From: a virus
Taxonomy: Duplodnaviria; Caudoviricetes
Virus record (IMG/VR): IMGVR_UViG_3300014205_000170
Location: 64,001 to 128,000 of that record
Length of the DNA: 64,000 nucleotides
Strand: one strand, 5' to 3'
How positions within the stretch are numbered: position 1 is the first letter of the stretch; every line of letters begins with the position of its first letter. A model generated the notes under the pieces. The model worked only from the letters and a program-made list of their open reading frames with translations. It ran no database searches and was not told the DNA's origin. The position numbers were made by a program, and so were the translations under genes. This document shows, in pieces, positions 6,648 to 50,700 of the stretch.

Positions 6648-7682
6648 ATGAGAAAACTAGCTTCCATACAAAGAGTAGATAAAATCAGACCGATTGAGAA
6701 TGCCGATAGTATCTGTTGTGCTAATATTTTAGGTTGGCAAATTGTATGTAGAATAGGAGATGTGAAAGAAAGTGATTTGGTTGTTTATTGCGAAATAGAC
6801 AGTTTATTGCCGGATATTGATTTATTTCAAGATGTCAAAAAAATCACTAGCGGAACTATGCGTATACGCACCGTTAGAATGAGAGGACAGGTATCACAAG
6901 GAATTTGTTTTCCAATAAGTATTGTTGAGAATTTTGGTTTATCAGTTACAAACATGACTATTGGCCAGGATGTAACCGATGCGATGGGTATAAAAAAATA
7001 TGAAGATGTGTTACCAGCCGAATTATTGGGTAAATCAAAAGGATATATGCCATCTGTAATACCTAAATCAGACTTATACCGTGTGCAAACAATGCAAGAT
7101 GTTCTTGATAAATACCAAGGAACTCTTTGTTATGAAACTGAAAAGTTAGACGGAGAAAGCATTACTTTTTATTTAAAAGATAATGTGTTTGGTGTTTGTT
7201 CTAAAGTTGTGGATTTTATTGAATCTGAAGATTCTGTACATTGGCGAATTGCAAAACAATTTAAAGTTGAAGAGAAATTAAGATTATATTCCAAAACCAA
7301 AGGAGCTAACTTGGGGTATAATTATTCAATGCAGGGCGAAATCATTGGAGAGGGAATCAAAAAAAATAAATACAAAATAAAGGGCCAAAAAGTATTTTTA
7401 TATAACATTTTCAACATTGATAAACATTGTTATTTAAACTACGATGAATTTGTTATGGCTACTACTGTATTAGATTTAGAAAGAGTACCTTTAATCAACG
7501 ATAGGCTCATTTTAAGTAATGATATTAATGAACTTGTTGCTTTATCAAATGGCAGGTCTATGCTATATGATACCAAACGTGAGGGAATTGTGATTACTCC
7601 GTTAATTGAAATAAATGATATTATTGGTCGCATAACCTTTAAGGTAATAAGTCCTGAATTTTTAATTAAACATGGTGAATAA
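6648..7682 (+). CDS. RNA ligase, DRB0094 family (OB-fold N-terminus plus Rnl2-like nucleotidyltransferase)
   Basis: MRKLASIQRV start, RMRGQVSQG, motif I TEKLDGES, QGEIIG, REGIV, FKVISPEFL. Confidence 0.9.
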   Translation: MRKLASIQRVDKIRPIENADSICCANILGWQIVCRIGDVKESDLVVYCEIDSLLPDIDLFQDVKKITSGTMRIRTVRMRGQVSQGICFPISIVENFGLSVTNMTIGQDVTDAMGIKKYEDVLPAELLGKSKGYMPSVIPKSDLYRVQTMQDVLDKYQGTLCYETEKLDGESITFYLKDNVFGVCSKVVDFIESEDSVHWRIAKQFKVEEKLRLYSKTKGANLGYNYSMQGEIIGEGIKKNKYKIKGQKVFLYNIFNIDKHCYLNYDEFVMATTVLDLERVPLINDRLILSNDINELVALSNGRSMLYDTKREGIVITPLIEINDIIGRITFKVISPEFLIKHGE

Positions 7683-18897: not shown

Positions 18898-20352
18898 ATG
18901 ACGCTAAATAAAAAGATATTTATAACAACAACATTGCCCTATGTGAATTCTATTCCGCACATTGGACATTCTCTTGAATTTATACAAGCAGATACTTTAA
19001 AGCGTTATCATAAAAGCATTTTAAATAGTGATGTTATTCTAAATGTTGGTTTGGATGAACATGGTTTAAAAGTTTTTACTAAAGCAAAGGAATTGGAAAA
19101 AACACCACAAGAATATTGTGATGAGCAAAGTAAAAATTGGATAGAATTCTGTGAAAAATTTAAAATTACTTACGATATATTTTATAGAACATCTTCTGAG
19201 GAACACAAAGTAAAAGTTCATACATTTTGGAATGAATGTTTAAATCGTGGTGATTTATATAAAAGAGAATATTCAGGGAAATATTGTGTAGGGTGTGAAT
19301 CTTTCAAAACCGATTCAGACCTTATCAACGGACGTTGCCCTGACCACAATGTAGAACCGGTTTATACAGCAGAAGAGAATTGGTTTTTTCGCATATCAAA
19401 ATACACAGAACATTTAACTCAATGGATTGAAAAAGAAGGAAAAAACTTTTTGACTCCACACTTGAAATTAAATGAATTAAAAAACATCATTGAAGGTGGT
19501 GTTGATATTTCAGTTTCAAGAAATAAAGATAATGTGCCTTGGGGTATACCAGTACCAAATGATAACACTCAAGTAATTTACGTATGGTTTGAAGCTTTGT
19601 GCAATTATTTGTTTGCATCTAATTATCTTGCTGGTGATGATGAAAATTATTGGAATGGTACAACTATTCAATTGTGTGGTCCGGACAATACTCGTTTTCA
19701 AGGTCACATTTTTCAAACACTTATTGCTTCTGCTCAAATAAAGCATACCACAAAACTTTTAGTTCATGGTACCATTTTAGATACCAATGGAAAAAAAATG
19801 TCAAAAACTTTAGGAAACGTTGTTGACCCAATAGAACAATTGAATAAATATGGACTGGATGCAGTTCGTTATTATACAATCAAAGGCATACATACTTGTT
19901 TAAATCACAATTGGAGTGAGCGCGAACTTGTAGATTTATACAATTCAGAACTGGCTGATGATTATGGGAATTTAATTGCAAGGACTTTACATTTAGTTGA
20001 TATAAAACGTTGTCCAATTGATGCGAGGTATGTAGAACCAAGTTTTAAAGAGGACATTGACAACAGATTGAGTGAAGTTAAAAACGAATGGCACAACCTC
20101 AACATAAACAAAGCCATTGAACTTACAATTTCTACTTTAAAATTTGGAAACAAATATTTAAACAATGCTCAGCCTTGGAATGAACCACATCTGTATACTC
20201 TTAATAATCTTTTTTATTTGTTGGAACAATGCACAAATTATTTAGAGCCGGTTATTCCGGATGGATGTGCATTAGCTCGTAAGTCTTTAAAAAACAAGAA
20301 AAAAGCAATAGTTTTTCCTAAAATAGTTGAAGAGTTAAAAGTTAATGTTTGA
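18898..20352 (+). CDS. metG: Methionyl-tRNA synthetase (no C-terminal OB domain)
   Basis: TTLPYVN, PHIGH, GLDEHG, YCVGCE, YVWFEAL, KMSKT. Confidence 0.95.
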   Translation: MTLNKKIFITTTLPYVNSIPHIGHSLEFIQADTLKRYHKSILNSDVILNVGLDEHGLKVFTKAKELEKTPQEYCDEQSKNWIEFCEKFKITYDIFYRTSSEEHKVKVHTFWNECLNRGDLYKREYSGKYCVGCESFKTDSDLINGRCPDHNVEPVYTAEENWFFRISKYTEHLTQWIEKEGKNFLTPHLKLNELKNIIEGGVDISVSRNKDNVPWGIPVPNDNTQVIYVWFEALCNYLFASNYLAGDDENYWNGTTIQLCGPDNTRFQGHIFQTLIASAQIKHTTKLLVHGTILDTNGKKMSKTLGNVVDPIEQLNKYGLDAVRYYTIKGIHTCLNHNWSERELVDLYNSELADDYGNLIARTLHLVDIKRCPIDARYVEPSFKEDIDNRLSEVKNEWHNLNINKAIELTISTLKFGNKYLNNAQPWNEPHLYTLNNLFYLLEQCTNYLEPVIPDGCALARKSLKNKKKAIVFPKIVEELKVNV

Positions 20353-23639: not shown

Positions 23640-24105
23640 TTTATTACAACATGGCTAAAAAAGAAACAAGTGTTTCACAGAAAACGGTTATGACAGAAAA
23701 AATTTCTGAAAGACCTTTATTGAAATTACATGTTCCCGGAGAAAGTTTTTGGGCATATAAAATTTCTGAAAATACTGCTGAAATTGGAAATATACTTATG
23801 AATCCAGATTATTGTTTGGGTGACATTGTATCATTTAATCCAAACAACAATGAAGTTATAAAATTAATAGAGAAAAAAACCACCACTTTAGCTATGAGCT
23901 ATTCTAAAGATGGTGATGTTAAAGAAAAATATAGTAAAATTTATACTTATTTTGAAGATAAAAACATTAAAGTAGAAGGTATGTTTGCTGGAGTTTTCTT
24001 ATTGGCTATTCCTATTAATATTCCAGAAAAAGCCATTGAACAAATTATAGCAGAGTGTCCTGAAAAAATAGATTTTATTGTTGATTAAAAAATTCGTTCT
24101 TTGAA

Positions 24106-24575
24106 TTGGTACTTAAAGTTAATTCAAAATTTTTATGTGGTTAAACCTACGGGGATTTGCCATGACGAGCCGGTTTAAAACCAATGAACCGTTTAACTTA
24201 TGAGCATCTTATATAGATAAGTGCTGCATAAAGAAATTGAATTAGCCTGAACCTTCATTTGCATTATTTATGAAGTAAAGAGCTGCCTTAAAAACAGGTC
24301 AAGAATAATGTAAGTTTTACTATTAACATCTTTATAGTATTACGGCTGCTGTACGTCTTCAGCAAAGCTTAGTAAGCAATTTTACAGGCATGACAGACAA
24401 AGAAAGATGTGAGTGATATTCAATAAATAATACTTATTGAAGAAACAAGAAGTTTCAGAAGGGATGATTGCTATGCCTTAATTCTTCTTAGGGATATTTC
24501 TGAAAATTATAAAATCCTCTTTAACTAAAAAAGAGTACCAAACCAGTGGAGGCTGGAACGAAGAGTTGGTACTTA
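24106..24575 (+). ncRNA. Candidate large structured ncRNA, family unassigned
   Basis: Only ~500 bp gap without an ORF; terminal helix TTGGTACT/AGTACCAA and at least 8 internal helices; strand inferred from context. Confidence 0.6.
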
Positions 24576-24928
24576 TTTTGAAAAAGAAGAATATACGATA
24601 ATAATGAAAAAAACATATACCACAAAACAAGCATTGACTCTTTTCAAAAAAAATCTCAAAAAAAAGAGGCCAGTTATAAATGCTTATTTGAAAAAATATT
24701 TACAAAAAATCATTAATAAAGAACTAGGGAAGGAATACAGAATTGAGGCTATGAAAATACTGTTAAAAGCAAAAAGAGAAGAAGTGGCTGAATTTCTCAT
24801 ATCTTATCATTCTGATGGAGTAAATGCTGGTATTTGCTGTCTTGCTTTGGATTTTATAAAAGACCGTCTTGTAAAAGACAAAGAGGTCGGAGAAAATTTT
24901 TGTAAAAAATTCGGTAATAAATTTTAAC

Positions 24929-25503
24929 ATGGCAAATCACGCAAGAATTTGTTCAAAGAAAAAGATTGACCCCAAAGAGGTTACAAAAATCATTAAAGGT
25001 CTTAATGAAGATATATTAGCTGGAGTTTTTACTATTGAATATCAACACAAACAAGAAAACGGATGGGGGAACATCAATGGTATGTACGTTATAAACAAAA
25101 CGAGAGGATTGCCTTAATGTTTTGGTTGACAGATGATGTTCGATATGGAACAGGTGATGAATATGGTTCTCAAAAGGAATATAAAGAATATAAAAAACCC
25201 AAGACTCTATCCAAACAAAGTTGCATTGAATTTCGACATGGTCATGCTTTTCAATTCATGTGGTGGGTAGAAGGGGTATTTAGAGAAAATCTGGGTAAAC
25301 ATTATAATGCTCAAATGTGGGATGATGGTACAGGTTGGTTAGAAAAAGCCAAACCTGAGCTTTATAAAACATTAGAAAGTTATGTTACCGGCATTGGTTG
25401 TAAAACTAAAGAACAAATTAAAGCTTGGAAAAAACTTCATTTTGATTGGCAGAAAGATGAAATTCCAAAAGAATTAATTAAAAAATTAAAATTAGATTTT
25501 TAA
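24929..25503 (+). pseudogene. Probable single gene split by a frameshift at a G5 run
   Basis: ORFs 24929..25117 and 25063..25503 fuse (ENGWG-EHQW) if one G is added at 25065-25069. Confidence 0.45.
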
Positions 25504-39793: not shown

Positions 39794-40021
39794 GAATGAG
39801 TAACAATAAACACATAAGCAATACTAAAACTATTAGCCAGAAAAAGTCTAATGAGCTATATCGAGTAGTTGATAAAACTATTATGGATGCTCGTATAGAC
39901 ATTAAGAAGTACATTGACACGCACAACCTGTCTAAACATCATGATAAAATAGATAAGATTCTTTTTGATTGCGGAATTAATGCTGCACAAGGAGCAATTG
40001 ATGTATTTAAAAAAACGAACA

Positions 40022-41266
40022 ATGGAAACAACTGAAAAAAACCAAATAGATATACACACATTTAAAATCATTCCTGAACATTTAGGAAAAGGTTTTGGTT
40101 TTTGTGTTTATGGAGAAACTTCTGAAGAAGTGTTGGAATTGGCGAAAGAATGTAATTTTAAAGTTGAGCCAGCTATTTCTGCAAAAGGCCATCAGTATAC
40201 AGATTTTTTTCCTACCGAAAAAACGGATTTCACTAAAATGTTTCCTGCATTTAAAAAATTTAAATACATGGATGGTTTTAGTCCAAACTTAAATAAACAT
40301 TTACATATTGGACATTTTTCCAATCTTGTAATTGCCAAAGCATTTCAATCATTGGAAGTCGCAGAAGTCTATTTTTCTATTCTTGGAGATACACTATCAA
40401 CAGAAGTGTCACTTAAAGCGGAAGCATTAGCGAAATTCGCTGGACATTGTATAACATTTGAATATAAATCAAATCCAATTTATTTTGCATCTGAAATGGT
40501 GTATAAAGGAGATTTATTAAAAGATGGCGAAGGAGATTATGCCGGTACAAAAATTGTTGAGATTGGTGAGGAAAAAATTGTTGTCATAAAACAAGATGGG
40601 TCTACATCTTATTTTTATCAAGATTTAGCTTTAGCTTCCGAACTTAATGAATCTACTCTTTACTTAACAGGCTATGAACAAGAAAATCATTTTAATACGC
40701 TTAAAAAGATTTATCCGCACATCCACCATGTTGGTTTGGGACTATTACGTTTTCAAACTCGAAATGAAGAAGGTAGTTTAGAGGATGATAAAATGTCAAC
40801 TCGTCTTGGAAATGTGATATTTCTTGATGATTTTCTAAAAGACTTACAGAAAAAATTTAATGATGATATAAAATTGTGTTATAACATCTTTGCAGGATAT
40901 ATTTTAAAAAACAATCCCAAGTCAGACAAAATGTTTAATGCTGACACAATGGAAAATCCAAAAAATTCTCCAGGATTATATTTGAGTTATACTATGGCGC
41001 GTTTAAAAAGTGCCGGAGTGCCAGCTACAACGAATGAAAATTTCATAAAACAGTTCTTAACGTTTAATTACTTAAAAAGTAAACACTCATTGAATCCTAA
41101 ATATTTATTTGATGCTTTAATTGATTTGTGTAATCAAATTAATCAATTGTATGGAATACATCAGATAAGCGAAAATGAAAAAAACAAAGAAATGTTTTCA
41201 GTTTTATTAGGAGACCTGTCTTTGGGAATGAAAAAATTAGGATTGTTTGAAATTGATAAAGTATAA
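40022..41266 (+). CDS. argS: Shortened arginyl-tRNA synthetase
   Basis: FSPNLNKHLHIGH, KQDGSTSYFYQDLA, KMSTRLGNV, YLSYTMARLKS; ATG at 40022. Confidence 0.9.
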   Translation: METTEKNQIDIHTFKIIPEHLGKGFGFCVYGETSEEVLELAKECNFKVEPAISAKGHQYTDFFPTEKTDFTKMFPAFKKFKYMDGFSPNLNKHLHIGHFSNLVIAKAFQSLEVAEVYFSILGDTLSTEVSLKAEALAKFAGHCITFEYKSNPIYFASEMVYKGDLLKDGEGDYAGTKIVEIGEEKIVVIKQDGSTSYFYQDLALASELNESTLYLTGYEQENHFNTLKKIYPHIHHVGLGLLRFQTRNEEGSLEDDKMSTRLGNVIFLDDFLKDLQKKFNDDIKLCYNIFAGYILKNNPKSDKMFNADTMENPKNSPGLYLSYTMARLKSAGVPATTNENFIKQFLTFNYLKSKHSLNPKYLFDALIDLCNQINQLYGIHQISENEKNKEMFSVLLGDLSLGMKKLGLFEIDKV

Positions 41267-49425: not shown

Positions 49426-50700
49426 ATGTTAAATTCTTCTATGTATATAGCTGTCATGTTCCCATATCCAAGCGGAGCAGGTTTGCACGTTGGTCATTAC
49501 TATAACTATTCAGTTATCGACTCGTATTGTCGTTACAAAAAATATTTACAAGTTCCTGTTTTTCAACCTTTTGGGTATGACAGCCATGGTCTTCCTGCAG
49601 AAAATTTTGCAAAATCAGTAGGAAGAGACCCAAAAGATGTGACGTATGAAAACATTGAAAATTTTCGAAGTCAAATGTTAAAAATGAACACTGGCTTTAA
49701 AGAGCTTTTAATCACTTCAGACGCATCTTATGTAAAATGGACTCAATGGTTGTTTTTACAATTAAAAGAGCGTGGGTTAGCCTATAAAAAGACTGGCTTA
49801 GTAAATTGGGACCCAATTGACCAAACAGTATTAGCAAACGAACAAGTAAAAAACGGTATTGCAGATAGAAGTGGCGCTAAAGTAGAACAGCGCGAAATGG
49901 AACAATGGTATTTTAAAATTACCGATTATAAAGACCGGTTGATAAAAAACTTGGATACAATCGATTATCCAAAATCTACCATAAATGCTCAAAGAGCTTG
50001 GTTGGAGAATTTACATGATTGGTGTGTATCTCGTCAACGTAAATGGGGATGTCCTATTCCTGTTGATGGCGAAACGGATACGTTGGATACTTTTGTGGAT
50101 AGCAGTTTCTATTTTATACGTTATTGTGACCCAACTAATGAAAATGAATTATGTGCTAAGAATAAGTATAAACCGGTTGATTTGTATGTAGGTGGTCCCG
50201 AACATGCTTGTATGCATTTGATTTATGCCAGATTCATCAATATGTTCTTGTATGACATTGGAATTGTTTCCCAAGAAGAACCTTTTAATAAAGTAATTCA
50301 CCAAGGAATGATTTTGAATGAAGGGCAGAAAATGTCAAAATCAAAAGGCAATGTTGTCAATCCTGATAGTTATGACTCAGATGAATTAAGATTTTATTTA
50401 ATGTTCATTGGACATTATTTTGATGGTGGAAGCTGGTCCGATAAAAACATATCCGGAATAAAAAGATTTATTAATCGCATGAAGGAATGGATGAGTCGTT
50501 CTGGAGAAGAAACTATTGACTTAACCACCTTCAAAAAACAAATATTCGATTATACAGAAGCTTTCAAGTTTAATAAAGTTGTAAGTTCATTTATGATTTT
50601 TTTAAATGATAATAAAGCTAAAAACGTAACTCCTGAATGTAGAGAAGAAATTATTTCTTTGCTTGAAATCTATATGCCAGGAATTAAAAATAAATTATAA
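49426..50700 (+). CDS. leuS: Minimal leucyl-tRNA synthetase lacking the CP1 editing domain
   Basis: MFPYPSGAGLHVGH, GLPAEN, TVLANEQV, DWCVSRQRKWG, KMSKSKGNVV; 424 aa. Confidence 0.93.
   Translation: MLNSSMYIAVMFPYPSGAGLHVGHYYNYSVIDSYCRYKKYLQVPVFQPFGYDSHGLPAENFAKSVGRDPKDVTYENIENFRSQMLKMNTGFKELLITSDASYVKWTQWLFLQLKERGLAYKKTGLVNWDPIDQTVLANEQVKNGIADRSGAKVEQREMEQWYFKITDYKDRLIKNLDTIDYPKSTINAQRAWLENLHDWCVSRQRKWGCPIPVDGETDTLDTFVDSSFYFIRYCDPTNENELCAKNKYKPVDLYVGGPEHACMHLIYARFINMFLYDIGIVSQEEPFNKVIHQGMILNEGQKMSKSKGNVVNPDSYDSDELRFYLMFIGHYFDGGSWSDKNISGIKRFINRMKEWMSRSGEETIDLTTFKKQIFDYTEAFKFNKVVSSFMIFLNDNKAKNVTPECREEIISLLEIYMPGIKNKL

What the first reader, a model, noticed from the sequence alone, without database searches (positions are those of the whole stretch)
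24089..24603. Large structured ncRNA candidate with a pseudoknot and an alternative terminal helix
Seen: this is the only ~500 bp ORF-free gap. Complementary pairs are 24106-13/24534-41, 24120-27/24237-44, 24132-37/24227-32, 24140-46/24191-97, 24203-12/24217-25, 24245-49/24385-89, 24253-58/24270-75, 24419-26/24434-41 and 24453-60/24498-505. ACATCTTT 24326-33 / AAAGATGT 24403-10 crosses the 24245/24385 helix, which would be a pseudoknot. TTGGTACTTA is repeated at 24106 and 24566, so either copy can pair with AGTACCAA. A boxA-like GTTCTTTGAA lies just upstream. I found no tmRNA, RNase P or tRNA signatures. Inference: a large phage ncRNA, possibly ROOL/GOLLD-like or new.
Basis: partly seen in the sequence, partly recalled or inferred. 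Interest (0 to 1): 0.7.

Follow-up and report, generated by a model that had tools for sequence, protein, structure and literature searches.

The report
New large knotted megaphage RNA gene
The only long gene-free gap in this stretch of a 519-kb giant phage is a real gene for a roughly 490-base, intricately folded non-coding RNA. It belongs to a family in no catalogue searched, is kept by compensatory mutations in five related phages, and starts with the same short signal found between this phage's tRNA genes. Its job is unknown.

Summary
Window 24089-24603 lies in a 518,809-bp megaphage with terminal repeats. It is closed by stop codons in all six frames and matches no Rfam 15 family.

I found four homologues in metagenome contigs (L006, L067, L074, L077), 66-81% identical over the core. 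On a five-sequence alignment, an 11-helix model is 94% paired. It has 28 pairs changed on both sides, against 1-5 when partners are slid and 0 of 500 shuffles. G-U pairs outnumber A-C 52 to 3, so the selected fold is RNA on the + strand.

The pseudoknot is real but crosses hairpin 24314-24343, not 24245/24385. The 5'-domain helices and the "alternative terminal helix" exist only in this phage.

All five copies start with GTTCTTTGA. This resembles the rRNA-operon boxA and recurs in this phage's tRNA arrays. All end in a covarying hairpin followed by a T run.

The RNA is accessory: close relatives, including a 508-kb phage, lack it. Its function is unknown. My best guess is a stable RNA that acts in its own right.

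The scan has noted other boxA-led large phage RNAs on other DNA, but none resembles this one in sequence.

The parts
24096..24104 (+). boxA-like leader motif GTTCTTTGA, directly after the stop codon of the upstream gene
   Evidence: Invariant in all five homologues. The extended 15-mer AAATTGTTCTTTGAA occurs exactly twice elsewhere in the genome, both in tRNA-array spacers on the + strand. It is identical in L074's leader. It resembles the B. subtilis rrn boxA-like consensus given in PMC13753749.
24105..24216 (+). Variable 5' domain.
Evidence: The length from the motif to the core is 99-249 nt among homologues. Only short motifs are shared. I did not verify a consensus fold.
24217..24225 (+). 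Invariant 9-nt segment at the start of the conserved core
   Evidence: Identical in all five sequences.
24253..24414 (+). Pseudoknotted central domain, closed by helix A (24253-56 with 24411-14, which never varies)
   Evidence: RNAalifold consensus and pair counts. Covariance model R1 of this domain finds exactly the five members at 177-205 bits.
24259..24313 (+). Helix B (24259-68 with 24304-13). It encloses the invariant loop 24269-80 and hairpin C (24280-85 with 24295-300), whose loop is conserved.
   Evidence: Helix B has 3 pairs changed on both sides and is 98% paired. Hairpin C has 3 such pairs.
24314..24343 (+). Hairpin D (24314-23 with 24334-43). Its loop, 24326-33, is the 5' strand of the pseudoknot.
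   Evidence: 3 pairs changed on both sides, 96% paired.
24326..24410 (+). Pseudoknot helix: 24326-33 (loop of D) with 24403-10
   Evidence: L074 changes C-G to U-A. Three others change U-A to U-G. 97.5% paired. It crosses the stem of hairpin D.
24346..24365 (+). Hairpin E (24346-51 with 24360-65)
   Evidence: One pair shows C-G, U-A and U-G across the five sequences.
24367..24389 (+). Hairpin F (24367-76 with 24381-89). It contains an invariant 13-nt stretch within 24372-85.
Evidence: 4 pairs changed on both sides and no mismatch at the outer three pairs in any member.
24419..24441 (+).
   Evidence: Every homologue has a hairpin here, but of different length and sequence: 23 nt in the window and up to about 50 nt in L077.
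24453..24505 (+). Arm G-H. Helix G is 24453-60 with 24498-505. The internal loop 24461-75 has a near-invariant 13-nt core. Hairpin H is 24476-81 with 24488-93.
   Evidence: Helix G has 5 of 8 pairs changed on both sides, with three different Watson-Crick versions. Hairpin H has 3 such pairs and is 100% paired.
24532..24580 (+). Terminator-like 3' hairpin. The outer stem is 24532-42 with 24565-75. The inner hairpin is 24543-46 with 24553-56. A T run lies at 24574-80.
   Evidence: The inner hairpin has 3 of 4 pairs changed on both sides. The outer stem covaries: win/L074 G-C to A-U and U-A to C-G, and L067 keeps a U-G. All five are followed by 4-7 T. The simple terminator scan did not call it because the loop exceeds 8 nt.
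23651..24088 (+). Upstream gene P0001, a 145-aa weak DUF4265-like protein
   Evidence: Pfam PF14085, E = 0.019, covering the whole profile. A DUF4265-like gene also adjoins the RNA in L006 and L074, but downstream.
24604..24927 (+). Downstream gene P0002, 107 aa, no family
   Evidence: In its homologues' loci L002-L005, read with DNA, no RNA stands upstream.
24929..25503 (+). Conserved 182-188-aa protein of unknown family, split here into two frames. It is the syntenic anchor downstream of every copy of the RNA.
   Evidence: Alignment A3 and synteny blast. 86 homologues found.

Best explanation
Window 24096 to about 24580 (+ strand) is the gene of a stand-alone, roughly 490-nt structured non-coding RNA. 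It belongs to a previously uncatalogued family carried by some members of a clade of roughly 0.5-Mb megaphages.

Shown:
- It is non-coding.
- It is conserved at 66-81% identity.
- Its fold is kept by compensatory changes. The fold is a pseudoknotted central domain, a G-H arm with a near-invariant internal loop, and a 3' hairpin.
- Selection acts on the + strand RNA.

Inferred:
- It is transcribed together with the upstream genes by host RNA polymerase. In the window and in L074 the leader motif follows the upstream stop codon within 4-7 nt.
- The invariant 5' boxA-like motif recruits NusB/S10-type factors. These would protect the long untranslated transcript from Rho-dependent termination, as in rRNA operons. 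The phage appears to use the same device in its tRNA arrays.
- The covarying 3' hairpin plus U run ends the transcript and protects it.
- The many invariant loop and junction nucleotides suggest that the folded RNA acts in its own right, as a protein-binding or self-assembling RNA of the ROOL/GOLLD kind. This is more likely than a role as a mere leader.
- Its target is unknown.
For: - Non-coding in all frames and codes.
- No Rfam family, for the window or for three of the four homologues (L067 was not scanned).
- Four homologues: nhmmer E = 7.5e-35 to 2e-85.
- The 11-helix model is 94.4% paired. It has 28 pairs changed on both sides, against 1-5 in slid controls, and 0 of 500 shuffles reach that.
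- G-U cells 52 against A-C 3.
- Model R1 finds one copy per member and nothing else.
- GTTCTTTGA is invariant at the 5' end.
- The exact 15-mer recurs only in tRNA-array spacers of the same genome, where about 0.005 occurrences are expected (the expectation is my own calculation from base composition).
- B. subtilis rrn boxA-like consensus (PMC13753749).
- GTTCTTTGAAAACT is the standard mycoplasma nested-PCR primer. That it lies in the 16S-23S spacer is from my own knowledge.
- T7 carries a boxA behind its early promoters (PMC3709561).
- The gene following the RNA differs among the five loci: P0002, DUF4265-like, a UVR-motif protein, a 66-aa ORF.
- The window's alternative 5' pairing is not conserved.
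Against: - There is no expression data.
- Only five sequences were found, two of them 81% identical, so the covariation counts are not a formal statistical test.
- No promoter is conserved.
- The 3' hairpin has an unusually large loop for an intrinsic terminator, and the scan did not call it.
- In all five loci the RNA lies upstream of same-strand genes and of the same 182-188-aa protein. A cis-acting leader role is therefore not excluded.
- The boxA reading rests on sequence resemblance and on recurrence between tRNAs. The host and its own boxA are unknown.
Confidence: 0.55

Rival explanations
1. Cis-acting leader. The folded RNA is the 5' untranslated leader of the downstream small-gene operon, which ends in the conserved 182-188-aa protein. 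It would work in one of two ways. It could load a boxA/Nus antitermination complex so that polymerase reads into the operon. Or it could use the 3' hairpin as a regulated attenuator.
For: - The RNA always lies 0.02-1.5 kb upstream of, and on the same strand as, the same conserved protein.
- The 3' hairpin ends 20-30 nt before the next start codon.
- In the window, a 5' copy of the 3' arm could compete with the hairpin.
Against: - The competing 5' pairing is absent from the four other members.
- The first downstream gene differs among the loci.
- Relatives express the same operon without any such leader.
- A length of 490-630 nt with about 11 conserved helices and a pseudoknot is far more than a boxA leader or a known attenuator needs.
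Confidence: 0.25
2. A ribozyme or a self-processing or mobile RNA element. Examples are a divergent intron-like or tRNA-processing RNA, inserted between genes and therefore patchily present.
For: - Presence and absence differ among close relatives at the same site.
- The pseudoknotted core has many invariant unpaired nucleotides.
- A Zn-ribbon / weak HNH-like ORF lies upstream in L067 and L006.
- L074 carries a 65-nt insert ending in CCA between the motif and the RNA.
Against: - No match to group I, group II, RNase P or small-ribozyme models, even at E up to 10.
- The flanking genes are separate, complete genes rather than exon halves.
- There is one copy per genome.
- The HNH-like ORF also occurs without the RNA.
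Confidence: 0.1
3. A DNA-level element, such as a replication origin, a packaging site or a recombination site, whose hairpins matter in DNA and not in RNA.
For: It is a gene-free, hairpin-rich stretch, and the - strand also folds better than shuffles (z = -3.05).
Against: - G-U pairs outnumber A-C pairs 52 to 3 in the conserved helices. This is expected only if the + strand RNA is what folds.
- There are no iterons or tandem repeats in what I read.
- There is one copy, and a related 508-kb phage lacks it.
Confidence: 0.03

Closest known systems
ROOL (RF03087) and GOLLD (RF01998) large ornate RNAs
   Same: - It is a large (about 0.5 kb), multi-helix, pseudoknotted RNA carried by phages, with no coding neighbour that explains it.
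- It is linked to tRNA genes by a shared leader motif.
- ROOL averages 581 nt, has three pseudoknots, and like GOLLD is often near tRNAs and in prophages (PMC5737381).
- Both form RNA-only assemblies seen by cryo-EM (10.1101/2024.12.08.627333, listed).
   Different: - There is no sequence or structure match to either model, even at E up to 10.
- It is not next to the tRNA arrays, which lie more than 250 kb away in this genome.
- Only five members are known, all from megaphage-like contigs.
- Self-assembly was not tested.
rRNA-operon leader/spacer boxA antitermination signal (NusB-S10 site); T7 early boxA
   Same: - A short U-rich motif with the core TCTTTGAA sits at the head of a long untranslated transcript and between tRNA genes.
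- It is close to the B. subtilis rrn consensus (PMC13753749).
- Phage use of boxA is known in T7 (PMC3709561).
   Different: - Binding of Nus factors and resistance to Rho were not tested.
- The host is unknown.
- The motif could instead be a processing or promoter signal for stable RNAs.
T4 species 1 and 2 (RNA C and D) and other stable phage RNAs made with tRNAs
   Same: These are phage-encoded stable RNAs of unknown function tied to the tRNA transcription and processing system. This comparison rests on my own knowledge, not on a test here.
   Different: Those RNAs are about 120-140 nt long and lie inside the tRNA cluster. This one is four times larger and lies elsewhere in the genome.
tmRNA
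   Same: It is a large pseudoknotted RNA commonly encoded by huge phages.
   Different: This phage has a canonical tmRNA elsewhere, at genome 475,621-475,985 (104.7 bits). The RNA studied here has no tRNA-like end and no tag frame, and ARAGORN and Rfam do not call it.

Membership tests
ROOL (RF03087) | [quoted passage not shown] | tested here: not met
   No match at the gathering score or at E up to 10 on 23900-24800. None at E up to 1 in L006, L074 or L077.
GOLLD (RF01998) | Match to the Rfam covariance model | tested here: not met
   Same searches, no match.
ROOL/GOLLD kind | Homo-oligomeric RNA-only assembly | not testable with these tools
   Needs native gel, SEC-MALS or cryo-EM of the transcript.
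tmRNA (RF00023) | tRNA-like domain with a CCA end, a tag reading frame, and a covariance-model match | tested here: not met
   ARAGORN finds none in the window and Rfam gives no match. The genome's tmRNA is at 475,621-475,985.
RNase P RNA | Covariance-model match, conserved regions CR-I to CR-V, and the P4 pseudoknot | tested here: not met
   No match to any RNase P model at E up to 10.
Group I / group II intron | Covariance-model match and interruption of a host gene, with the flanks forming one reading frame | tested here: not met
   No model match. P0001 covers a whole DUF4265 profile. P0002 and its homologues are complete stand-alone proteins.
rrn-type boxA | Sequence close to the boxA consensus, placed in the leader or spacer of untranslated stable-RNA transcripts | tested here: met
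   The motif is invariant in five members and recurs in tRNA spacers. It shares the core TCTTTGAA with the B. subtilis consensus.
rrn-type boxA | Binds NusB-S10 and confers resistance to Rho | not testable with these tools
   Needs EMSA and terminator read-through assays. The host is unknown.
Intrinsic terminator | Stable stem-loop directly followed by a U run | tested here: inconclusive
   A covarying 8-11-bp stem followed by 4-7 T is present in all five. However, the loop is 22-27 nt with an inner hairpin, and the consensus scan did not call it.
Riboswitch / attenuator leader | Conserved mutually exclusive terminator and antiterminator pairings | tested here: not met
   The 5' partner of 24534-41 exists only in the window. 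Leader-to-tail duplexes are no better than those in other windows of the RNA.

The most novel reading that the evidence does not exclude
This is a new class of large pseudoknotted RNA that giant phages make the way cells make ribosomal RNA: boxA-protected and co-regulated with their tRNA arrays. It acts in its own right, as a ribozyme, an RNA-protein machine or an RNA-only assembly, within the phage's take-over of translation or stable-RNA metabolism.
Probability: 0.4. Interest if true: 0.8.

Novelty: new variant of a known kind. Interest (0 to 1): 0.62.

Why it matters
Bacterial and phage RNAs longer than about 400 nt with many conserved helices are rare. Those understood so far are ribozymes, ribonucleoprotein cores or, as shown recently, RNA-only cages. 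This adds a covariation-supported family from roughly 0.5-Mb megaphages, a group whose non-coding content is almost unexplored.

It also ties the RNA to the phage's tRNA arrays through a shared boxA-like signal. That suggests giant phages borrow the host's rRNA-type antitermination system for their own stable RNAs. This is directly testable with a short leader and purified NusB-S10.

The family is small and accessory, so it may serve a niche function such as host range or counter-defence.

Tried and rejected
**Searches that found nothing further**
- Phage GenBank collection by blastn: no match.
- IMG/VR protein routes from both flanking genes: nothing.
- Five IMG/VR pattern scans gave only chance hits or none.
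- Two scans of prokaryote genomes: none.
- The related 508-kb megaphage G001 lacks the RNA, both by blastn and by covariance model.
- Loci with homologues of P0002 (L002-L005) or of the 188-aa protein (L068, L070, L072, L073, L075, L076) lack it by nhmmer or covariance model. For the two P0017 contigs no DNA could be read, and only the gene tables show no room for it.
- Records behind the Logan and ENA loci could not be searched whole.

**Readings considered and rejected**
- tmRNA. ARAGORN's permuted call at genome 17780 is a tRNA, and the true tmRNA is at 475.6 kb.
- Split gene plus intron.
It has mismatches in L067 and L077, and local hairpin F fits better.
- A closing helix between the boxA-like motif and the loop of the 3' hairpin. 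It is compatible in all five, but the duplexes (-5 to -8.6 kcal/mol) are no better than those with other parts of the RNA.
- L074's 65-nt insert as a tRNA. ARAGORN and Rfam do not call it, and its fold z-score is -1.3.
- A k-turn or C/D-box reading of the 24461-75 loop. Covariation shows that the flanking "CUGA" is ordinary helix.

Full report
**Setting.** The window is bases 64,001-128,000 of a 518,809-bp virus record with direct terminal repeats and 30% G+C. The genome carries about 50 tRNA genes in arrays and a canonical tmRNA at 475,621-475,985. The window holds several aminoacyl-tRNA-synthetase-like genes and an RNA ligase. Standard code 11 gives 90% ORF coverage, so no recoding is needed.

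**The observation.**
- Window 24089-24603 has stop codons, including TAA, in all six frames.
- It is the only gap of 250 nt or more without a 40-aa ORF in the window.
- Perfect 8-bp complementarities are only modestly enriched: 12 observed against 5.5 +/- 2.8 in shuffles.
- The + strand folds at z = -4.24 and the - strand at -3.05.
- Rfam 15 gives nothing at gathering scores for the whole window. On 23900-24800 at E up to 10 it gives only noise. ARAGORN finds nothing.

**Homologues.**
- The flanking proteins are separate genes. P0001 spans a whole DUF4265 profile weakly. P0002 has stand-alone homologues.
- The one homologue of P0001 (P0003) led to L006. There, a 590-nt gene-free stretch upstream of the gene matches the RNA (nhmmer E = 7.5e-35).
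- A pattern built from a block shared by both copies found L067 in JGI metagenomes.
- A conserved 182-188-aa protein downstream of all copies (alignment A3) gave 86 homologues. Their contigs yielded L074 and L077.
- Core identities are 66-81%.
- Many equally close relatives have no RNA at the site: L070, L072, L073, L075, L076 and the 508-kb phage G001. For the two P0017 contigs this rests on gene tables only. The element is therefore accessory.
- Five IMG/VR scans and two scans of prokaryote genomes found no further members.

**Structure.**
- 94.4% of cells are paired, against 42-49% when partners are slid by 1-3 columns.
- 28 pairs change on both sides, against 1-5 in slid controls. 0 of 500 shuffles reach the observed values.
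- The structure was derived from these same sequences and only five are available. This is strong support, but it is not a formal test.

The best-supported helices are:
- G (24453-60/24498-505), with three different Watson-Crick versions.
- B, C, D, F and H.
- The inner and outer stems of the 3' hairpin.
- The pseudoknot 24326-33/24403-10. L074 changes C-G to U-A, and three others change U-A to U-G.

Other points on the fold:
- The pseudoknot's 5' strand is the loop of hairpin D (24314-23/24334-43), so it is a genuine pseudoknot.
Local hairpin F pairs the same 3' strand without mismatch in all five.
Helix B uses the neighbouring bases and covaries.
- The 5' domain varies from 99 to 249 nt.
- A variable hairpin occupies 24419-41 in every member.
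- Several loops and junctions are invariant: 24217-25, 24269-80, a 13-nt stretch within 24372-85, and the core of 24461-75.

**Strand and ends.**
- In the conserved helices, G-U cells number 52 and A-C cells 3. The fold is therefore selected in the + strand RNA, not in DNA and not in an antisense RNA.
- All five members begin with GTTCTTTGA. In the window and in L074 it lies within 4-7 nt of the upstream stop codon.
- The extended 15-mer AAATTGTTCTTTGAA has only two exact copies in the 519-kb genome. Both lie in tRNA-array spacers on the tRNA strand, and near-copies lie in two more spacers. The identical 15-mer heads L074's copy.
- The motif shares TCTTTGAA with the B. subtilis rrn boxA-like consensus (PMC13753749).
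- GTTCTTTGAAAACT is the standard mycoplasma nested-PCR primer. That this primer lies in the 16S-23S spacer is my own knowledge. T7 uses a boxA behind its early promoters (PMC3709561).
- I therefore read the motif as a boxA-type signal for untranslated stable-RNA transcription. That reading is an inference.
- An alternative is that the motif is the 5' strand of a closing helix with the loop of the 3' hairpin. This is compatible in all five but is not energetically distinctive.
- The 3' end is a covarying hairpin followed by 4-7 T in all members. It looks like a terminator but has an unusually large loop.
- No conserved sigma-70-type promoter was found.

**What it does.** Nothing here shows a function. 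The arguments for an RNA that acts in its own right are:
- its size;
- about 11 conserved helices and a pseudoknot;
- many invariant unpaired nucleotides;
- expansion segments at fixed positions;
- a different first downstream gene in different members;
- the absence of any conserved alternative pairing.

A cis-acting leader role remains possible (about 25%). The RNA always precedes same-strand genes and the same 182-188-aa protein. A ribozyme or mobile-element reading (about 10%) fits the patchy distribution, but no model match or exon structure supports it. A DNA-level role is made unlikely by the G-U excess.

**Comparison and novelty.**
- The closest known kind is the large ornate phage-associated RNAs ROOL and GOLLD (PMC5737381).
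- This RNA fails their covariance models, so it is not a member of either family. It is a new family of that general kind, with an added boxA-like leader.
- Earlier notes of this scan describe other boxA-led large phage RNAs in other genomes. None shares sequence words with this family. I treated those notes only as leads.

Noticed in passing
window 24929-25503: The conserved 182-188-aa protein (strongly conserved central block, no Pfam or PHROG family) is split here into two overlapping frames, 24929-25117 and 25063-25503. The split is at a G run near 25066-25071. Homologues are single ORFs. This could be a sequencing error, a pseudogene or a programmed frameshift.
   Followed up: partly
genome 344,882 and 420,181 (outside the window; also near-copies at 344,431 and 420,976): The exact 15-mer AAATTGTTCTTTGAA lies in spacers of the two tRNA arrays, just 3' of a tRNA and 4-13 nt before the next one. 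It is the same motif that heads the large RNA.
   Followed up: partly
L074:1341-1405: A 65-nt G+C-rich insert lies between the boxA-like motif and the large RNA. It starts with GGGG and ends in CUCCACCA. ARAGORN does not call it a tRNA and Rfam does not match it. It may relate to the small CCA-ended RNAs noted elsewhere in the scan (e1-5365650).
   Followed up: partly
genome 475,621-475,985 and 17,780-18,274 (outside the window): A canonical tmRNA (104.7 bits) lies at 475.6 kb. ARAGORN's 'permuted tmRNA' at 17.8 kb overlaps an ordinary tRNA-like hit and is probably a false call.
   Followed up: yes
genome 18,106-18,455; 19,128-19,632; 30,835-31,092; 497,284-497,603; 514,609-514,883 (outside the window): Other ORF-free gaps of 250-505 nt with no Rfam match at E up to 0.01. 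They were not examined further and could hold other RNAs or terminal and regulatory DNA.
   Followed up: no
window 18898-20352, 39965-41266, 49426-50700, 6648-7682: A cluster of translation and RNA-repair genes: a MetRS-like protein, a weak ArgRS-like protein, a second class I synthetase-like protein and an RNA ligase. The large RNA therefore sits in a translation-related part of the genome.
   Followed up: no
L067:5624-5992 and L006:722-1081: A Zn-ribbon protein (phrog_6504, with a weak HNH-endonuclease PHROG hit) lies upstream of the RNA in two members. A 122-aa gene of the same length also occurs in a relative that lacks the RNA; I did not test its homology.
   Followed up: partly
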